DNA of 64,000 bases, taken from IMG/VR virus record IMGVR_UViG_3300021197_001931, positions 97,720-161,719 of that record; one strand, written 5' to 3'. Position 1 is the first letter of the stretch. Each line of letters starts with the position of its first letter. The notes under the pieces were generated by a model, which saw nothing but the letters and a program-made list of their open reading frames with translations, did not search any database and had not been told where the DNA came from. Below are positions 29,763 through 53,014 of the stretch, one piece after another. The position numbers were made by a program, and so were the translations under genes. This stretch comes from a virus.

Positions 29763-30341
29763 ATGAGTAAAATAAGAGAATTCATTATTGAAAGCAAGAA
29801 GCACGGAAAACATACTATACTGATTGATGAAGAGGACTGGGAGAAGGTTTCTCAGCACAAGTGGTGCATAGATGCTACGGCTAGGAGAAACAGTCGTGGA
29901 GGGTTTTACGCAAAGACCTCCATCCTACACCCAGACGGGGGGTGGTATGACAACCCAACTAGTGGTCGCGGACGCAGACGAACATCAATGTTCCTGCATC
30001 GCTTTCTGATGAATCCACCCCCAGGCTATATGGTCGACCATATAAACCATAATGGGCTGGACAACAGAAGGGAAAATCTACGTATTTGCACGCGGGTAGA
30101 GAACGGACGTAATAGACTTCCTTCAAAGAAGACCGCTTCTGGCTATAAAGGAGTTAGAAGAAACGGCAGCGATAATTGCTGGCAGGCTAAGATCAATATA
30201 GATAAAAAACAAACATATATAGGCTCCTTTGCAACGGCAGAGGAAGCAGCCTTAGCTTATGACAAAGTGGCGATTAAAGAGCACGGCGAATTCGCTTGTT
30301 TAAATTTCCCAGAAAAATATAACAGAAAGGAAAGCAAATGA
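29763..30341 (+). CDS. Free-standing HNH homing endonuclease with AP2 domain
   Basis: LHRFLM..VDHINHNGLDNRRENLR; SGYKGV..WQAKI..IGSFATAEEAALAYD. Confidence 0.92.
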   Translation: MSKIREFIIESKKHGKHTILIDEEDWEKVSQHKWCIDATARRNSRGGFYAKTSILHPDGGWYDNPTSGRGRRRTSMFLHRFLMNPPPGYMVDHINHNGLDNRRENLRICTRVENGRNRLPSKKTASGYKGVRRNGSDNCWQAKINIDKKQTYIGSFATAEEAALAYDKVAIKEHGEFACLNFPEKYNRKESK

Positions 30342-31330
30342 TAGCAGACATTATTGTAGATCTCCAATACGGAGATTGTGGAAAAGGCAAAGTAACTCAT
30401 ACTCTGCTGGAGAACGGGGATTACACACATTGTATTAGATACAATGGCGGACCAAATGCAGGACATACTATTTACCACAATGGGGAGAAGTTCGTAACTC
30501 ACTCCATTCCTGCTGGGGTCTTCTATGGAGTTAAGTCCATTATTGGCCCCGGCTGTGTTGTGAACTTACAACAGTTTTATAAAGAGATAGATGAACTAGA
30601 AAGTAAAGGAGTATTTTGTAAGGGCCTGGTGTTCATATCAAAAAACGCTCATATTATTACATCAGCACACCTATCTGAAGATTCTGGAGACAGTAAGATT
30701 GGTACAACCAAGCGTGGCAACGGCCCAGCGTACCGTGATAAATATGCGCGCAAGGGAGTTAGAGCGGAGGATGTCCCGGAACTAGAGTCTTACCTAGTCG
30801 ATGTCTACCAGGAGTTACATGATGGAAAATATGAAGCTGTCGCGCTCTTTGAGGGTGCTCAAGGGTTTGGTCTTGATATCGACTGGGGTGACTATCCTTA
30901 CGTTACTAGTAGCCACTGCACCACTGCGGGAGCTATGCTCAATGGTGTCCCACCCAGATCGGTAAGGCATGTTTGGGGAGTGGCCAAATGCTACGAGACA
31001 TATGTGGGCAATAAGAAGTTCGAAACTGCCGCCAAAATTTTTTCCCAAATCCGTGAAGTTGGGCAGGAATATGGTGCTACTACAGGACGACCAAGGCAGT
31101 GCAATTGGCTAAATATTGACCTTCTAAAGAAGGCAGCCAAGATTAACGGAGTTACAAACCTTGTAATCAACAAGATGGATGTTCTTCGTGAGGTCGGCGC
31201 TTGGACAGTTCGCAACGATAGTGGTGCCACTAGAAACGTGCAAGATGAAAACCTCTTTAGGCGTTTTCTCAAGTCGCAAATTCCTGACAATATTGCGGTT
31301 TATTTTTCGGAAAGCCCACATACCATTTGA
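30338..31330 (+). CDS. purA: Adenylosuccinate synthetase (compact form)
   Basis: QYGDCGKGK, GGPNAGHT, GTTKRG.GP, EGAQG, YPYVTSS, GATTGRPR, NKMDVL. Confidence 0.92.
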   Translation: MIADIIVDLQYGDCGKGKVTHTLLENGDYTHCIRYNGGPNAGHTIYHNGEKFVTHSIPAGVFYGVKSIIGPGCVVNLQQFYKEIDELESKGVFCKGLVFISKNAHIITSAHLSEDSGDSKIGTTKRGNGPAYRDKYARKGVRAEDVPELESYLVDVYQELHDGKYEAVALFEGAQGFGLDIDWGDYPYVTSSHCTTAGAMLNGVPPRSVRHVWGVAKCYETYVGNKKFETAAKIFSQIREVGQEYGATTGRPRQCNWLNIDLLKKAAKINGVTNLVINKMDVLREVGAWTVRNDSGATRNVQDENLFRRFLKSQIPDNIAVYFSESPHTI

Positions 31331-32122: not shown

Positions 32123-32397
32123 ACCGTAAGCAAAGGCGAGCAGCCAAAAAGGAGTTGAAGAAGCAACATGGTGTTGAGGAGGAAATGGCTGAAAAGATAT
32201 TCCTCTTCAGCAAAATGCCTGATGAATGCTCTGCCTGCACGAAACCATTTGACAAGAAGGATAGAGAGATGGTAATGTCTTGGAGTGTCGTCGTTAGAAA
32301 TGATGACGAGACAGTTCGCCTTTATTGTCCCACTTGTTGGGAGACGGCACAAAAAGTTGTCGCTGATTTTCATGGAGTAAAAGATGAAGATGTATAA
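32119..32397 (+). CDS. Zn-finger hypothetical protein
   Basis: CSAC..CPTC. Confidence 0.55.
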   Translation: MNRKQRRAAKKELKKQHGVEEEMAEKIFLFSKMPDECSACTKPFDKKDREMVMSWSVVVRNDDETVRLYCPTCWETAQKVVADFHGVKDEDV

Positions 32398-33415
32398 AGA
32401 AGCACTAAGTTATGACGATGTTCTACTGGTTCCACAGTATTCAGATATTGAAAGTCGAAGAGAAGTCTCTCTTCAATCACAGCTTGGGCACTATATTCTG
32501 GAACTTCCGATTATTGCAAGCCCAATGGACACGATTGTTGAGGCAGAAATGGCTGCTGCGATGGCAGATCTTGGAGGACTTGGAATTATCCACAGATATA
32601 ATACAATTGAAGAGCAGGTTTCAATAGCGTCCAAGGCGGCCATGCAGGTAAATAATAATTCTGTTGGTGCTGCAATCCCGATTAGTGGAGATTTTATTGA
32701 GAGGGCTCAGGCGCTAATGCAAGTTGGTGTAAAGTTTATGTGCATCGATGTTGCACATGGGGACCACATCATGATGAAAACTGCGTTGGATGCTTTGAGG
32801 TCCAAGCTACCAGGCCATGTCCACATCATGGCTGGCAATGTTGCCACTCAAGAGGGGTATGAGAGACTTGTTGAGTGGGGCGCTGACTCTGTTCGTGTTG
32901 GAATCGGTGGAGGTTCTATCTGTTCTACTCGTATCCAAACCGGGCATGGTGTTCCAACACTTGCTTCCGTTATTGACTGTGCAAAGTCTCGCTACGCTGG
33001 AACTCATGCAATTATCGCTGATGGTGGTATTAAAACTAGTGGCGATATTGTAAAGGCAATTGGTGTTGGAGCTGACTTTGTTATGATCGGTTCTCTTTTC
33101 TCAGGCACAACTGAGACACCTGGCAAGATTCTTGTAAAAGAAGACGGCTCAAAGGTCAAGGAGTATCGGGGAATGGCCTCTCAGGCTGCACAGATGGCAT
33201 GGCGTGGTCGCACCTCTTCTCTCGAAGGTATTTCAACTTTTGTTCCATTCAAGGGCAAGGTAAAATATATTATCGATGATCTTGTTAATGGAATTCGAAG
33301 TGGGCTCTCTTATACTGGAAGTCGAAGTATCGAAGAGTTTCAGGCACGAGCCCATTTTATCCAACAGACGCAGGCTGGACAGTCTGAAAGCTCAACCCAT
33401 ATTCTTAAACGATGA
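32384..33415 (+). CDS. IMP dehydrogenase / GMP reductase family enzyme without CBS domains
   Basis: LSYDDVLLVP, SPMDT, IDVAHG, AGNVAT, GIGGGSICSTR, ADGGI, YRGMAS. Confidence 0.9.
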   Translation: MKMYKEALSYDDVLLVPQYSDIESRREVSLQSQLGHYILELPIIASPMDTIVEAEMAAAMADLGGLGIIHRYNTIEEQVSIASKAAMQVNNNSVGAAIPISGDFIERAQALMQVGVKFMCIDVAHGDHIMMKTALDALRSKLPGHVHIMAGNVATQEGYERLVEWGADSVRVGIGGGSICSTRIQTGHGVPTLASVIDCAKSRYAGTHAIIADGGIKTSGDIVKAIGVGADFVMIGSLFSGTTETPGKILVKEDGSKVKEYRGMASQAAQMAWRGRTSSLEGISTFVPFKGKVKYIIDDLVNGIRSGLSYTGSRSIEEFQARAHFIQQTQAGQSESSTHILKR

Positions 33416-50478: not shown

Positions 50479-50706
50479 ATGGACTTAAAGGTTGGTGATT
50501 TAGTTCGCCGTTACAAGTTTGATTGCGTGGAGGGACCAAGGGCCCCTCTTGTAGGAATAATCATAAGGATAGTAGACCAGGCCCCATACCACCGAATGAT
50601 TCATGTTTTGTTTGGTGATAGAATTAGGCGCTATAGTGAGTGTTATGGCGCACAAACCTCCCTAAAGGTGATAAGTGAAACCCATAGAGACCAAGAGGCT
50701 GTGTAA
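50479..50706 (+). CDS. SH3/KOW-like micro-protein
   Basis: LKVGDLVRR..GIII..IHVLF..LKVIS. Confidence 0.6.
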   Translation: MDLKVGDLVRRYKFDCVEGPRAPLVGIIIRIVDQAPYHRMIHVLFGDRIRRYSECYGAQTSLKVISETHRDQEAV

Positions 50707-51040
50707 GAAGTGTAATACTTTCTATGACATAGAAATGTTTCCTGTCAACAACACTTTCCCTGACAGGGTTCTTCGAAAGCACACCTGCAAGAAATGCCGC
50801 TCACACCAGGCAAAGGTGAGAAGGAAGCTGCATAAAGAGAATAAAAGGCCACGCACAATTACTTGTCCTATATGCGGAACACACACTGATAAGCCGGTGC
50901 TTGACCACAATCACACGACAGACAAATTTAGAGGCTGGGTTTGCAATGATTGCAATAATGCTCTTGGCAAATTCAAGGATGACGTGTATACTCTAAAGAA
51001 AGCGATTCGATATCTACAAATAAATAATGGGGGCTCATAG
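50675..51040 (+). CDS. Endonuclease VII-family (His-Me) nuclease
   Basis: CPICG..DHNH.T.KFRGWVCNDCNNALG..DD....AIRYL plus N-terminal CxxC pairs. Confidence 0.85.
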   Translation: MKPIETKRLCKKCNTFYDIEMFPVNNTFPDRVLRKHTCKKCRSHQAKVRRKLHKENKRPRTITCPICGTHTDKPVLDHNHTTDKFRGWVCNDCNNALGKFKDDVYTLKKAIRYLQINNGGS

Positions 51041-51106
51041 CTCAATGGTTAGAGCAGTCCGCTCATAACGGATTGGTTGCAGGTTCAAATCCTGCTGAGC
51101 CTACCA
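51031..51106 (+). tRNA. tRNA with CAT anticodon, most likely tRNA-Ile2 (lysidine); CCA encoded
   Basis: Acceptor GGGCTCA/TGAGCCT, D arm TAGCTCAATGGTTAGAGC, anticodon arm GTCCG-CTCATAA-CGGAT, T loop GGTTCAAATCC. Confidence 0.9.
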
Positions 51107-51167
51107 AAAACTTCTTGACAAATTTAAAAAGATTTGATACTATATAAACAATCAAAAAGGAAAACAA

Positions 51168-51362
51168 ATGCCTCTCATATGCGTTCTAATTCTATTCGTG
51201 ACCCCCTTCTCAATCTTGCTCGCAGGGCTCAATCCCCTCATCAGTGAAGGAGCCCGATTGCTCATCTGGGACCTTTGGCTTGAAAAGGGTATCCCGCTAA
51301 ATATTGGACTAAGTTTTGGCCTCATCATGGGCGCAGAGCTACAAAAGGCTTTTCAAAAATAG
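51168..51362 (+). CDS. Small membrane protein
   Basis: Own promoter and RBS; two hydrophobic segments. Confidence 0.5.
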   Translation: MPLICVLILFVTPFSILLAGLNPLISEGARLLIWDLWLEKGIPLNIGLSFGLIMGAELQKAFQK

Positions 51363-51411
51363 TTCTTGACATTTCCAAATCATTGGGATACAATACAAAA
51401 CAATCAAATGT

Positions 51412-51485
51412 GGACCCATAGCTCAATTAGGCAGAGCATCGGACTCTTAATCCGCAGGTTGAAGGTTCGATTCCTTCTGGGTTCA
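51412..51485 (+). tRNA. tRNA-Lys(CTT), CCA not encoded
   Basis: Acceptor GGACCCA/TGGGTTC, anticodon loop CTCTTAA, T loop GGTTCGATTCC; promoter at 51366. Confidence 0.9.
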
Positions 51486-51515
51486 CTCATTTAAACAAAA
51501 GAAAAGGAAATATAA

Positions 51516-51803
51516 ATGAAGCTTATTAATAATCTAATCGTGCTGCCACTAATTATTGGCCTCGTGAGCTGCCCCATGGCATGCTCTACAGTGTCGCCAG
51601 ATGACGATGACAGTGCAGAAGGAGATGACGATGACAGTGCCGATGAGACTGGAGACGACGACGATAGTGCGATGGCTTCTATGGGAGACGCTCGTATCTT
51701 TGTTGAACGTAATTGCGACGACATGCGTGATAATGATCGCGATGAGTACACCGATTGTGCAGACCCAGACTGCAGCGAGGCGCCAGACTGCAACGGATTT
51801 TAA
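51516..51803 (+). CDS. Exported/lipoprotein with DDDDSA repeats and CDD..DND.D..TDC.D.DC motif
   Basis: Hydrophobic leader with Cys; acidic Ca-binding-like repeats. Confidence 0.65.
   Translation: MKLINNLIVLPLIIGLVSCPMACSTVSPDDDDSAEGDDDDSADETGDDDDSAMASMGDARIFVERNCDDMRDNDRDEYTDCADPDCSEAPDCNGF
51599..51670 (+). repeat. Three imperfect GA(T/C)GACGA(T/C)GA(C/T)AGTGC repeats encoding DDDDSA
   Basis: Visible directly in the sequence. Confidence 0.8.
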
Positions 51804-51868
51804 TTTTTCTGCTTGACAGCAGAAAAGATACTTGATATTATATATTCAACAAATGAAAGGAAAACAAA

Positions 51869-52069
51869 ATGTCAATTCGTGAAAACAACTATTCAACTCG
51901 TAACATGAGCTTCTCAGTCCGACAGGGGGACAATTCAAAGCGTGCAGGGGTCAACCGCTTCACTCTTACAACCTCCTCTGAAGATTGGCAAAGCCCCACT
52001 GCTACGGTGAATATGACTATCCGAGAGGCGCGCTCACTGCAGCGCTTCCTCAATCAGACTCTTTCATAG
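51869..52069 (+). CDS. Small hypothetical protein
   Basis: Own promoter (51813) and AAGGA RBS. Confidence 0.55.
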   Translation: MSIRENNYSTRNMSFSVRQGDNSKRAGVNRFTLTTSSEDWQSPTATVNMTIREARSLQRFLNQTLS

Positions 52070-52204
52070 GGCTTCCTATGGAGGGCGACCAGAGCCATTT
52101 GGCTCTAATCAGTGCTTATAAAATTCTTTTATAACCTTCCTATGAGTTTGGATTTATAAGCTATGTCCCGCAGGGAGGCACGGGGTTACAGGTGCCTCTT
52201 TCCC
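52060..52204 (+). ncRNA. Candidate structured RNA / leader with four consecutive hairpins upstream of lysW
   Basis: Stems at 52060-52085, 52091-52106, 52114-52161 and 52172-52201. Confidence 0.35.
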
Positions 52205-52218
52205 TAGAAAGGTATAAA

Positions 52219-52392
52219 ATGTCAATGGTTCCAGAGTGCCCAGTATGCGGTGCATTAGTCATAATTAATATTGATAATGAGGTGGGGGAACTTATTGATT
52301 GCGAGGAGTGTGAAAGTATGCTAGAAATTCTCTGCATCGACCCCCCGCAGATTGATGAGGCCCCGGAGGAGGAGGAAGATTGGGGTGAGTGA
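52219..52392 (+). CDS. lysW: LysW/ArgW-type amino-group carrier protein
   Basis: CPVCG..GELIDCEEC..LE..APEEEEDWGE; Zn ribbon plus the diagnostic C-terminal EDWGE. Confidence 0.9.
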   Translation: MSMVPECPVCGALVIINIDNEVGELIDCEECESMLEILCIDPPQIDEAPEEEEDWGE

Positions 52393-52435
52393 TAAAATAT
52401 AATGTTTTAACCTAGTTACGATTAGGAGAGCAAAG

Positions 52436-52531
52436 ATGAGGAATAAGGAGCTATGGGCGACATTGCTATCTTTTGCAGTGCTCTCGTTTATGGCGGGGAT
52501 GGTGGCGGGATTAGTCCTCTCTTATCTTTAG
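52436..52531 (+). CDS. 31 aa single-TM peptide
   Basis: AGGAG RBS; MRNKELWATLLSFAVLSFMAGMVAGLVLSYL; CTAGTTA at 52412. Confidence 0.45.
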   Translation: MRNKELWATLLSFAVLSFMAGMVAGLVLSYL

Positions 52532-52546
52532 TATCTATATACTTAC

Positions 52547-53014
52547 ATGGATTACGCAGTCGGGGATTTGTTGAGAGAAGACAAATCTTCTTGGAGTGAC
52601 CTTGCTAATCCTTACTCTTGGAGAGACTATGGGGTGGGGATTATACTAAGTATCGACAAGAAAAAGCAAATAGCTAAGGTTTATTGGTTTGAGGTTGGGG
52701 TAGCATCTATATACAAATTTAGAAACATGGACATGTACCTTGAAGTAATATCTACTGCTAAGTAAATTATTCTTTTGACTTCTCTGTTAACTATATTATA
52801 TGTTTAATGGAGACATGAAATGAATTATCAACCAATACAAAATGGAACAAAAGTAATAGTACATACCATGTTGGAGTCTCGACCTGGGATCATTATGCAT
52901 TCTATCAACATGATGTACAAGATAAAGCTTGACAACGGGAGGGTCGGTTGGTACGGTAGGTACGAGATCGACCCAGACAGGAGTGAAATATGGCGCAGTG
53001 CAAGAAATGCCTAG
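52547..53014 (+). other. Two SH3/KOW-like micro-proteins (52547-52765, 52820-53014)
   Basis: AVGDLL..GVGIIL..AKVYW..LEVIS; NGTKV..PGII..YKIKL. Confidence 0.55.

What the first reader, a model, noticed from the sequence alone, without database searches (positions are those of the whole stretch)
51031..52392. Orphan phage LysW in a lysine-themed island with tRNA-Lys and tRNA-Ile2
Seen: a clear LysW (two CxxC, terminal EDWGE) with no LysX/ArgX ATP-grasp ligase or LysZYJK in the window, within 1.4 kb of tRNA-Lys(CTT) and a CAT tRNA. Known: LysW carries aminoadipate or glutamate on its C-terminal Glu in Lys/Arg synthesis, related carriers serve natural-product pathways, and tRNA-Ile2 needs lysine for lysidine. 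I do not recall LysW as a described phage gene. Inference: it boosts a carrier-limited host pathway, or acts as a decoy for a host ATP-grasp ligase.
Basis: partly seen in the sequence, partly recalled or inferred. Interest (0 to 1): 0.75.

Follow-up and report, generated by a model that had tools for sequence, protein, structure and literature searches.

The report
Orphan LysW carrier gene in phage
A widespread uncultured marine phage carries a well-conserved copy of LysW, the small protein on which some microbes build lysine or arginine, but none of the enzymes that use it. It most likely plugs into the host's pathway, a kind of phage metabolic gene that has not been studied.

Summary
Window 52219-52392 (+) encodes a 57-aa LysW-family amino-group carrier protein. 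It has two CxxC knuckles, 18 acidic and no basic residues, and a C-terminal EDWGE. It passes the TIGR01206 and Pfam cut-offs, aligns end to end with Thermus LysW, and its model matches only LysW structures.

The window is the end of a 161.7-kb viral contig from a myovirus-like marine phage. No LysX/ArgX or LysZ/Y/J homologue lies on that contig or on two related contigs. In cells, 67 of 72 lysW loci have lysX within 6 kb.

The gene is not debris:
- It sits at the same place in three diverged phage lineages (100, 85 and 56% identity) and in about ten metagenome clusters.
- All copies keep the four Cys and EDWGE.
- dN/dS is 0.04-0.12, and the phage copies form one clade.

More distant relatives, including a 98%-complete genome, lack it.

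The "lysine-themed island" reading is not supported. The tRNAs belong to a codon-supplementing tRNA cluster.

A boost to a host pathway is the best reading (about 0.45). A decoy role cannot be excluded. The host is unknown.

New here: a roughly 150-nt leader upstream of lysW that is more conserved than the neighbouring genes. Earlier scan notes hold no phage LysW.

The parts
51031..51106 (+). tRNA with anticodon CAT, probably tRNA-Ile2 (lysidine type). It is part of the phage tRNA cluster and is not functionally tied to lysW.
   Evidence: Found by ARAGORN and by Rfam tRNA at 73.5 bits. Its best E. coli match is annotated tRNA-Ile, 77.6% over 76 nt. It is 92% identical to the CAT tRNA of L002 and L084.
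51412..51486 (+). tRNA-Lys(CTT), a codon-supplementing tRNA.
   Evidence: Found by ARAGORN and by Rfam at 68.8 bits. It is present in L002 and L084. AAG makes up 42% of the phage's Lys codons.
51516..51803 (+). 95-aa acidic predicted lipoprotein. It has a signal peptide with an LVSC lipobox, DDDDSA repeats and a Cys-rich C-terminus. It is the upstream neighbour of lysW (or of orf66) in all three phage lineages.
   Evidence: ORF. It has syntenic homologues in L002 (79%) and L084 (51%). No Pfam or PHROG family matches it.
51813..51841 (+). Sigma-70-type promoter (TTGACA-17-TATTAT with an extended -10 TG) that most likely drives orf66 and lysW.
   Evidence: Scores 11 of 12 in the promoter scan. 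It is conserved across haplotypes. No promoter-like site lies between it and lysW.
51869..52069 (+). orf66, a 66-aa basic protein (pI about 11) upstream of lysW in the same apparent transcription unit. It is an ORFan restricted to this phage clade.
   Evidence: Substitutions fall with a period of three bases. The protein is 91-100% identical across haplotypes. Only two 90%-identity clusters exist among 5.8 billion proteins. It is absent from L084.
52070..52218 (+). Conserved 149-nt leader between orf66 and lysW. It is a candidate structured cis-regulatory RNA whose last hairpin covers the lysW Shine-Dalgarno sequence.
   Evidence: It is 90.6% identical to L002, against 69-86% for the neighbouring CDSs. 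Variable positions are enriched in predicted unpaired sites (12 of 29 fall in paired sites, against 66% of positions paired; P = 0.0026). No covariation was seen. The MFE z-score is -0.97. No Rfam family matches.
52219..52392 (+). lysW: a LysW-family amino-group carrier protein, 57 aa from the ATG at 52219. The family match starts at the Met encoded at 52225.
   Evidence: See for family membership. All four Cys and EDWGE are kept in all phage copies. dN/dS is 0.04-0.12. The phage copies are monophyletic at 95/86 support.
52436..52531 (+). 31-aa single-pass membrane ORF immediately downstream of lysW.
   Evidence: ORF. It is conserved in L002 (84%) and L084 (61%).

Best explanation
The gene encodes a working LysW-type amino-group carrier protein that an uncultured marine tailed phage expresses early, from a host-type promoter. 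The phage carries no ligase of its own. The carrier is therefore most likely loaded on its C-terminal Glu by the host's LysX/ArgX ATP-grasp ligase, with alpha-aminoadipate or glutamate, and then passed along the host LysZ-LysY-LysJ-LysK enzymes. Extra carrier would sustain or raise flux to lysine and/or ornithine and arginine while host gene expression is being shut down. It would be an auxiliary metabolic gene of the carrier-protein type.

Shown: family membership, fold, intact zinc site and tail, purifying selection, retention in one phage lineage, and absence of partner genes on the available phage DNA.

Inferred: loading by a host ligase, the direction of the effect (boost), and that the host has the pathway at all.
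For: - Membership: TIGR01206 above its cut-off, PF21344, a full-length alignment to Thermus and Thermococcus LysW, and a model that matches only LysW chains taken from complexes with LysZ, LysY, LysX and ArgX.
- The EDWGE tail is the element read by the GSWGR motif of LysX/ArgX (PMC10433800). It is invariant in phage copies that are only 56% identical overall. Of 70 cellular LysX neighbours, 66 carry G[ST]WG[RK].
- dN/dS is 0.04-0.12, with dS up to 1.3.
- The gene is orthologous across the phage lineage. Its divergence (56%) matches that of its syntenic neighbours (44-61%), and the phage copies form one clade.
- It lies among genes with sigma-70-type promoters.
- The phage carries many other metabolic genes: RNR, a PurA-like and an IMPDH/GMPR-like enzyme, dUTPase and GroEL.
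- In cells, lysW almost always sits next to lysX. The family's only known function therefore runs through that ligase.
Against: - The host is unknown, so nothing shows that a LysX/ArgX pathway is present in it.
- No cellular LysW exceeds about 60-62% identity, so there is no recent host donor to point to.
- The same conserved features would be needed by a decoy.
- More distant relatives, including a 98%-complete genome, do without the gene.
- CheckV estimates that 28% of the genome is unseen.
- All phage copies carry Met where cellular LysWs have Glu in the xELE strand after the second knuckle. The meaning of this change is unknown.
Confidence: 0.45

Rival explanations
1. Decoy or competitive inhibitor. 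The phage LysW binds the host LysX/ArgX, or later enzymes of the pathway, but is a poor or dead-end substrate. This shuts down host lysine or arginine synthesis, or diverts glutamate, 2-oxoglutarate and ATP to phage needs.
For: - It is an orphan with no enzymes of its own.
- It is very acidic (18 D/E, no K/R), like many phage inhibitor proteins.
- The phage clade shares a Glu-to-Met change in the strand after the second knuckle.
- Between near-identical phages, lysW is a local patch of divergence: 89% nt identity against 99-100% in the flanks.
Against: - Blocking amino-acid supply during a lytic cycle has no obvious benefit.
- The divergent patch has dN/dS of about 0.12, which looks like allele exchange rather than an arms race.
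- Every feature needed for full carrier function is retained.
Confidence: 0.2
2. Carrier for a phage-specific pathway. The ligase and tailoring enzymes would lie in the unseen part of the genome or belong to unrecognised families, and would make a modified amino acid or amine. This would resemble the LysW-like carriers of Streptomyces secondary metabolism.
For: - The contig is estimated at 72% complete.
- Most neighbouring genes have no family.
- lysW has its own conserved leader and a co-transcribed ORFan that is restricted to this clade and highly conserved.
Against: - No ATP-grasp enzyme of any tested family lies in 161.7 kb, nor in the L002 and L084 contigs.
- No homologue of any gene flanking cellular lysW was found.
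- Carrier pathways are normally clustered with the carrier.
Confidence: 0.12
3. A repurposed zinc ribbon with no carrier role, for example an anti-restriction or other host-takeover protein that merely descends from LysW.
For: - It gives weak hits to Lar restriction-alleviation models (PF14354 E 0.002; TIGR03655 E 0.01).
- It sits in an early-gene region full of small host-takeover-like ORFs.
Against: - The EDWGE tail and the APEEEE linker are invariant across phage copies that are 56% identical, which a non-carrier role would not require.
- The Lar hits are far below their cut-offs, while the lysW equivalog passes its own.
- It has no PADLOC hit.
Confidence: 0.08

Closest known systems
LysW of Thermus thermophilus (PDB 3WWL, 3WWN, 5EIO), the alpha-aminoadipate carrier of the AAA lysine pathway
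   Same: Same length, four zinc-binding Cys, an acidic globular domain, an APEExEDWGE tail ending in Glu, and the same fold. Sequence identity is 47-49% over the full length.
   Different: The phage gene is on a phage, has no lysX/Z/Y/J/K nearby, belongs to its own phage clade, has Met in place of the Glu of the xELE strand, and is preceded by a conserved leader and an ORFan.
LysW/ArgW of Sulfolobus, Thermococcus and haloarchaea, a common carrier for lysine and arginine (ornithine) synthesis (PDB 3VPB, 5K2M; PMC10433800)
   Same: A zinc ribbon plus the EDWGE tail that the GSWGR motif of LysX/ArgX reads. Structural matches have TM 0.68-0.71.
   Different: The archaeal model NF041070 scores 40.8 bits, below its cut-off of 75. 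The phage copy groups with bacterial LysWs.
Bacterial lysW-lysX-lysY-(amidotransferase-like)-lysZ-lysJ operons of Ignavibacteriota/Bacteroidota, gammaproteobacterial MAGs, Acidobacteriota and Gemmatimonadota
   Same: These are the nearest cellular sequences, at 52-60% identity. They share a weakly supported group with the phage clade in the tree.
   Different: In cells the carrier is nearly always adjacent to the ligase (67 of 72 loci). The phage gene stands alone.
Phage auxiliary metabolic genes that encode small carrier or shuttle proteins, such as ferredoxin, plastocyanin, thioredoxin/glutaredoxin and acyl carrier protein (from general knowledge)
   Same: A small host-pathway protein carried without the pathway's enzymes, presumed to plug into host machinery.
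   Different: No LysW-type amino-group carrier has been analysed in a phage. The only mention found is a label on a haloarchaeal-virus genome map (bioRxiv 10.1101/2025.02.15.638363).

Membership tests
LysW/ArgW amino-group carrier proteins (TIGR01206; Pfam PF21344) | A protein of about 54 residues with a zinc ribbon made of two CxxC knuckles | tested here: met
   CPVC and CEEC are present. PF21344 scores 35.3 bits against a cut-off of 27. The AF2 model (pLDDT 88.9) matches only LysW chains at E < 0.01.
LysW/ArgW amino-group carrier proteins (TIGR01206; Pfam PF21344) | A C-terminal EDWGE motif ending in the Glu that carries the substrate | tested here: met
   The protein ends ...APEEEEDWGE. The motif is invariant in all 31 aligned relatives and in every phage copy. 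The motif definition comes from PMC10433800.
LysW/ArgW amino-group carrier proteins (TIGR01206; Pfam PF21344) | A whole-protein score above the curated equivalog cut-off | tested here: met
   TIGR01206 scores 54.4 bits against 53.2, a narrow pass, and 53.4 bits in the genome search. The archaeal model NF041070 scores 40.8 against 75, which is not met.
LysW/ArgW amino-group carrier proteins (TIGR01206; Pfam PF21344) | Genomic association with a LysX/ArgX ATP-grasp ligase and LysZ/Y/J/K | tested here: not met
   None was found on the 161.7-kb contig or on two related contigs. In cells, 67 of 72 loci have lysX within 6 kb. The contig is estimated at 72% complete, and the host genome is unknown.
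LysW/ArgW amino-group carrier proteins (TIGR01206; Pfam PF21344) | Covalent loading of aminoadipate or glutamate on the terminal Glu by LysX/ArgX, and processing by LysZ/Y/J/K | not testable with these tools
   This needs biochemistry or genetic complementation.
Phage auxiliary metabolic gene | A homologue of a cellular metabolic gene embedded in phage DNA, conserved among related phages and under purifying selection | tested here: met
   It is flanked by phage genes in at least three independent viral contigs and many metagenome contigs. dN/dS is 0.04-0.12. The phage clade is monophyletic.
tRNA-Ile2 (CAU anticodon modified to lysidine) | A CAT anticodon, a body resembling tRNA-Ile2 rather than elongator or initiator tRNA-Met, and modification by TilS | tested here: inconclusive
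   The best E. coli match is annotated tRNA-Ile, at 77.6% over the full length. G27-U43 and C4-G69 are present, and the anticodon stem is not of initiator type (read). The genome also has tRNA-Ile(TAT). The modification cannot be tested here.
Known riboswitch or leader RNA families (Rfam 15) | A match of the lysW leader to a curated covariance model | tested here: not met
   Nothing above noise was found in 51800-52240 at E <= 10, nor in 50500-53000 at E <= 1.

The most novel reading that the evidence does not exclude
The phage LysW may not be a simple helper. It could be a phage tool that captures the host LysX/ArgX-type ATP-grasp ligase, either as a decoy or to build a phage-specific product on the carrier. 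Its synthesis could be gated by a new ligand-sensing leader RNA (window 52070-52218) that hides the lysW ribosome-binding site.
Probability: 0.2. Interest if true: 0.8.

Novelty: new member of a known kind. Interest (0 to 1): 0.55.

Why it matters
LysW-type carrier proteins are known from cellular lysine and arginine synthesis and from a few natural-product pathways. A phage-borne orphan copy, conserved under selection, would add amino-group carrier proteins to the small set of carrier or shuttle proteins that phages use to steer host metabolism.

It would also point to lysine, arginine or ornithine supply as a bottleneck in infections of an as yet unknown marine host. The protein is tiny and easy to make, and it has clear assays: a mass shift on loading, and complementation of a lysW mutant. 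Boost versus decoy is therefore directly testable.

The conserved leader in front of the gene is a candidate new regulatory RNA attached to a phage metabolic gene.

Tried and rejected
**Host inference.** It failed by every route tried.
- There is no psbA on the contig.
- The phage tmRNA is the one-piece type. Its tag, ANNSNYSELALAA, matches none of four candidate lineages that have lysW.
- The nearest GroEL relatives are unnamed metagenome proteins.
- The nearest cultured phages are distant: Bacteroides DAC and Flavobacterium immuto phages for GroEL (about 44%), and Microcystis Mel-JY01 and Flavobacterium immuto for the tail sheath. For DnaE they are Bacillus and Streptomyces phages at about 30%.
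- A survey found lysW in 26 of 167 sampled Bacteroidota genomes, but gave no taxon names.

**Other phage LysWs.** GenBank phages gave none. PHROGs has no family. Two scans of IMG/VR found only this lineage. The scans depend on sequence patterns and can miss divergent copies.

**The leader.** It has no Rfam family, no second copy in the genome, no other IMG/VR contig beyond L002, no covariation and an unremarkable folding energy.

**orf66 with LysW.** One complex prediction gave no verdict and counts neither way.

**Neighbouring genes.** PADLOC, PHROGs and Pfam gave nothing useful for orf66, the lipoprotein or the small membrane ORFs.

**PurZ idea.** I considered whether the PurA-like gene marks a 2-aminoadenine genome. 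It scores better as PurA (284 bits) than as PurZ (141 bits, cut-off 300), so I dropped the idea.

**The 178-kb contig.** The rest of this near-identical phage contig (L085) is not held and could not be searched for lysX.
Full report
**What is there.** Window 52192-52392 (+) holds an ORF whose last 55-57 residues read MSMVPECPVCG...CEECES...APEEEEDWGE. Several independent tests place it in the LysW family:
- It passes NCBI's lysW equivalog model TIGR01206, narrowly (54.4 bits against 53.2).
- It passes Pfam's Zn_ribbon_LysW (35.3 bits against 27).
- It aligns from first to last residue with Thermus thermophilus LysW (3WWL, E 2.4e-11) and with Thermococcus LysW (5K2M).
- An AlphaFold2 model built on 31 relatives has pLDDT 88.9. 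Its six best PDB matches are all LysW chains, taken from complexes with LysZ, LysY, LysX/ArgX and ArgX. The next match has E about 1.
- The protein has 18 acidic and no basic residues.

The literature defines the family by the zinc-binding Cys residues and by the EDWGE tail. The terminal Glu of that tail carries the substrate, and the GSWGR motif of LysX/ArgX reads the tail (PMC10433800). All of these features are present.

**The genome.** The window is the last 64 kb of a 161,719-bp IMG/VR viral contig that CheckV rates 72% complete.
- It encodes a contractile-tail sheath, a DnaB helicase, ribonucleotide reductase, a DnaE-type polymerase and GroEL.
- It also carries a tmRNA and seven tRNAs.
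- Identical or near-identical LysW proteins occur on dozens of marine metagenome contigs, including Tara Oceans samples and a deep-chlorophyll-maximum sample.

The tmRNA and the sigma-70-type promoters indicate a bacterial host.

**Orphan status.**
- Three ATP-grasp models (RimK, rimK_fam, ATP-grasp_4) find nothing on the contig.
- I took every ORF flanking 80 cellular lysW loci and ran them against the phage by tblastn. These flanks demonstrably hold lysX, lysY, lysZ and lysJ. Only an unrelated IMP-dehydrogenase-like gene matched.
- An HMM built from 70 LysX sequences, searched against all stop-to-stop frames, gave a best E of 0.49.
- The two related IMG/VR contigs also lack RimK-type genes.

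By contrast, 67 of 72 cellular lysW loci have lysX within 6 kb, and in 47 of 66 it starts directly downstream. The orphan state is therefore unusual for this family. The caveat is that part of the phage genome is unseen.

**Is it a working gene?** Yes.
- The gene sits at the same place in three diverged phage lineages: the window and L085 (89% aa), L002 (85%) and L084 (56%). The neighbours are the same in each.
- Its divergence from L084 (56%) matches that of the adjacent genes (44-61%). This indicates vertical descent rather than repeated capture.
- In a tree with 72 cellular LysWs, the four phage sequences form one clade (95/86 support). That clade lies inside a weakly supported group with Ignavibacteriota/Bacteroidota, gammaproteobacterial MAGs, Acidobacteriota and Gemmatimonadota. 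It does not group with Chloroflexota, Deinococcota or archaea.
- No cellular sequence exceeds about 60-62% identity, so the gene is an old resident of the phage lineage.
- dN/dS is 0.08 against L002 (dS 1.25), 0.12 against L085, and 0.04 between L002 and L085.
- All four Cys and the whole APEE(E/D)EDWGE tail are kept in every phage copy.

More distant relatives share the nearby 172-aa gene but not this neighbourhood, and they have no lysW. One of them is a 98%-complete 178.6-kb genome. LysW is thus an accessory gene of one sub-lineage.

**Local anatomy.** The region is a run of small genes, each behind a strong sigma-70-type promoter. An earlier scan note had described this architecture.
- lysW has no promoter of its own. 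The nearest lies at 51813-51841, ahead of orf66, a 66-aa basic ORFan.
- orf66 is 91-100% conserved, shows substitutions with a period of three bases, and exists only in this clade.
- Between orf66 and lysW lie 149 nt that are more conserved than any neighbouring coding sequence: 90.6% against L002, compared with 69-86%.
- Across six distinct sequence versions from nine contigs, the changes in this stretch fall mainly in predicted loops (P = 0.0026).
- The last predicted hairpin (CUUUC-N4-GAAAG) covers the lysW Shine-Dalgarno sequence.
- Against a structured RNA: there is no covariation, no unusual folding energy and no Rfam match.

A structured regulatory leader is therefore a hypothesis, not a finding. 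L084 lacks both orf66 and the leader; there lysW abuts the acidic lipoprotein gene.

Between the window and the otherwise 99-100% identical L085, lysW is a local patch of divergence (89% nt identity). Its low dN/dS suggests exchange of alleles rather than positive selection.

**The "lysine theme".** This part of the reading does not hold.
- The CAT tRNA is plausibly tRNA-Ile2. Its best E. coli match is tRNA-Ile.
- However, the cluster also contains tRNA-Gln in L002 and L084. In the window, an endonuclease VII gene sits at that position.
- In L084, about 2.5 kb holding a likely restriction-modification pair, a small membrane ORF and an HNH gene lies between the CAT tRNA and tRNA-Lys.
- The phage has five further tRNAs elsewhere, including tRNA-Ile(TAT).
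- Its codon use (AUA 35% of Ile, AGA 42% of Arg, ACA 39% of Thr, AAG 42% of Lys) fits ordinary codon supplementation.

**Mechanism.** The only known function of this family is to be loaded on the terminal Glu by LysX/ArgX and then carried through LysZ, LysY, LysJ and LysK. Every element needed for that is under selection in the phage copy, and the phage has no ligase. The simplest reading is that the host's enzymes use it, which would make it a carrier-type auxiliary metabolic gene that keeps lysine and/or ornithine-arginine synthesis going. I put this at about 0.45.

The rivals are:
- a decoy that titrates the host ligase (about 0.2);
- a carrier for a phage-specific pathway encoded in the unseen part of the genome (about 0.12);
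- a repurposed zinc ribbon with no carrier role (about 0.08).

The decoy would need the same conserved features, so sequence alone cannot separate it from the boost. All phage copies share a Glu-to-Met change in the strand after the second knuckle. This is the one clade-specific difference I can point to, and its meaning is unknown.

**What could not be settled.** The host is unknown; the routes tried are listed under Tried and rejected. Without the host, the presence of a LysX/ArgX pathway in infected cells is an assumption.

**Novelty.** IMG annotation pipelines already label these genes "alpha-aminoadipate carrier protein LysW", so the name is in databases. I found no paper that analyses a phage LysW. 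The only mention is a label in a figure legend for a (nano)haloarchaeal virus map. PHROGs has no family and GenBank phages give no hit. Among 2.9 million IMG/VR contigs, canonical-tail LysWs turned up only in this lineage. Earlier notes of this scan contain LysW-like carriers in Patescibacteria and a Glu-Glu-tail phenomenon in another phage, but no phage LysW.

I class it as a new member of a known protein family in a new, orphan, phage-borne setting. It is moderately interesting and readily testable.

Noticed in passing
window 52070-52218: The 149-nt stretch between orf66 and lysW is more conserved than any flanking CDS (90.6% against L002). Variation is concentrated in predicted loops, and the last hairpin hides the lysW Shine-Dalgarno sequence. 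There is no Rfam family and no covariation. It is a candidate new cis-regulatory RNA.
   Followed up: partly
window 51869-52069: orf66 is a 66-aa basic protein (pI about 11) that is 91-100% conserved and found only in this phage clade (two clusters among 5.8 billion proteins). It appears to be co-transcribed with the very acidic LysW and is absent from L084.
   Followed up: partly
window 51516-51803: A 95-aa predicted lipoprotein with an LVSC lipobox, three DDDDSA-type repeats and a Cys- and Asp-rich C-terminus (CDDMRDNDRDEYTDCADPDCSEAPDC). It is conserved upstream of lysW in all three phage lineages and has no known family.
   Followed up: no
window 50675-51040: An endonuclease VII gene (Pfam E 7.6e-15) overlaps the first bases of the CAT tRNA. 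It occupies the position where L002 and L084 carry tRNA-Gln, which looks like replacement by a mobile endonuclease.
   Followed up: no
genome G000:C1:4054-4390 (outside the window; locus L093 255-591): A phage-encoded one-piece tmRNA (Rfam 112 bits) with tag ANNSNYSELALAA. It sits next to tRNA-Ile(TAT), Arg(TCT), Leu(CAA), Asn and Thr(TGT). The phage therefore carries two tRNAs that could read AUA.
   Followed up: partly
window 52286-52360, compared with L085: lysW is a local patch of divergence (73-83% nt identity) between two phages that are otherwise 99-100% identical over the flanks. Similar patches lie in the SH3-like gene at 52640-52730 and in the ORF at 52850-52925. This suggests allele exchange within the population.
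   Followed up: partly
L084 5152-6695 and 7081-7533: The related phage has a 213-aa protein, a 301-aa DNA methyltransferase-like protein and a 150-aa HNH-type protein inserted within the tRNA cluster. None of them is present in the window.
   Followed up: no
cellular loci L003, L010, L013, L016, L054 and others: In 19 bacterial lysW operons of the group nearest the phage, a roughly 215-aa protein starting MCRLL... and containing HGWGCA (amidotransferase-like) sits between lysY and lysZ.
   Followed up: no
protein P0028 (Bdellovibrionales MAG): A LysW homologue with the full EDWGE tail but none of the four zinc-binding cysteines.
   Followed up: no
window 30338-31330 and 32384-33415: A short (330-aa) PurA-like adenylosuccinate synthase scores better as PurA (284 bits) than as PurZ (141 bits, cut-off 300). 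A 343-aa IMPDH/GMP-reductase-family protein without CBS domains lies about 1 kb away.
   Followed up: partly
viral record G008 (IMGVR_UViG_3300030329_005082, locus L117): This distant relative is 178.6 kb and rated 98% complete. The true genome size of this phage family may therefore be nearer 180 kb than the roughly 225 kb implied by the 72% estimate for this contig.
   Followed up: no
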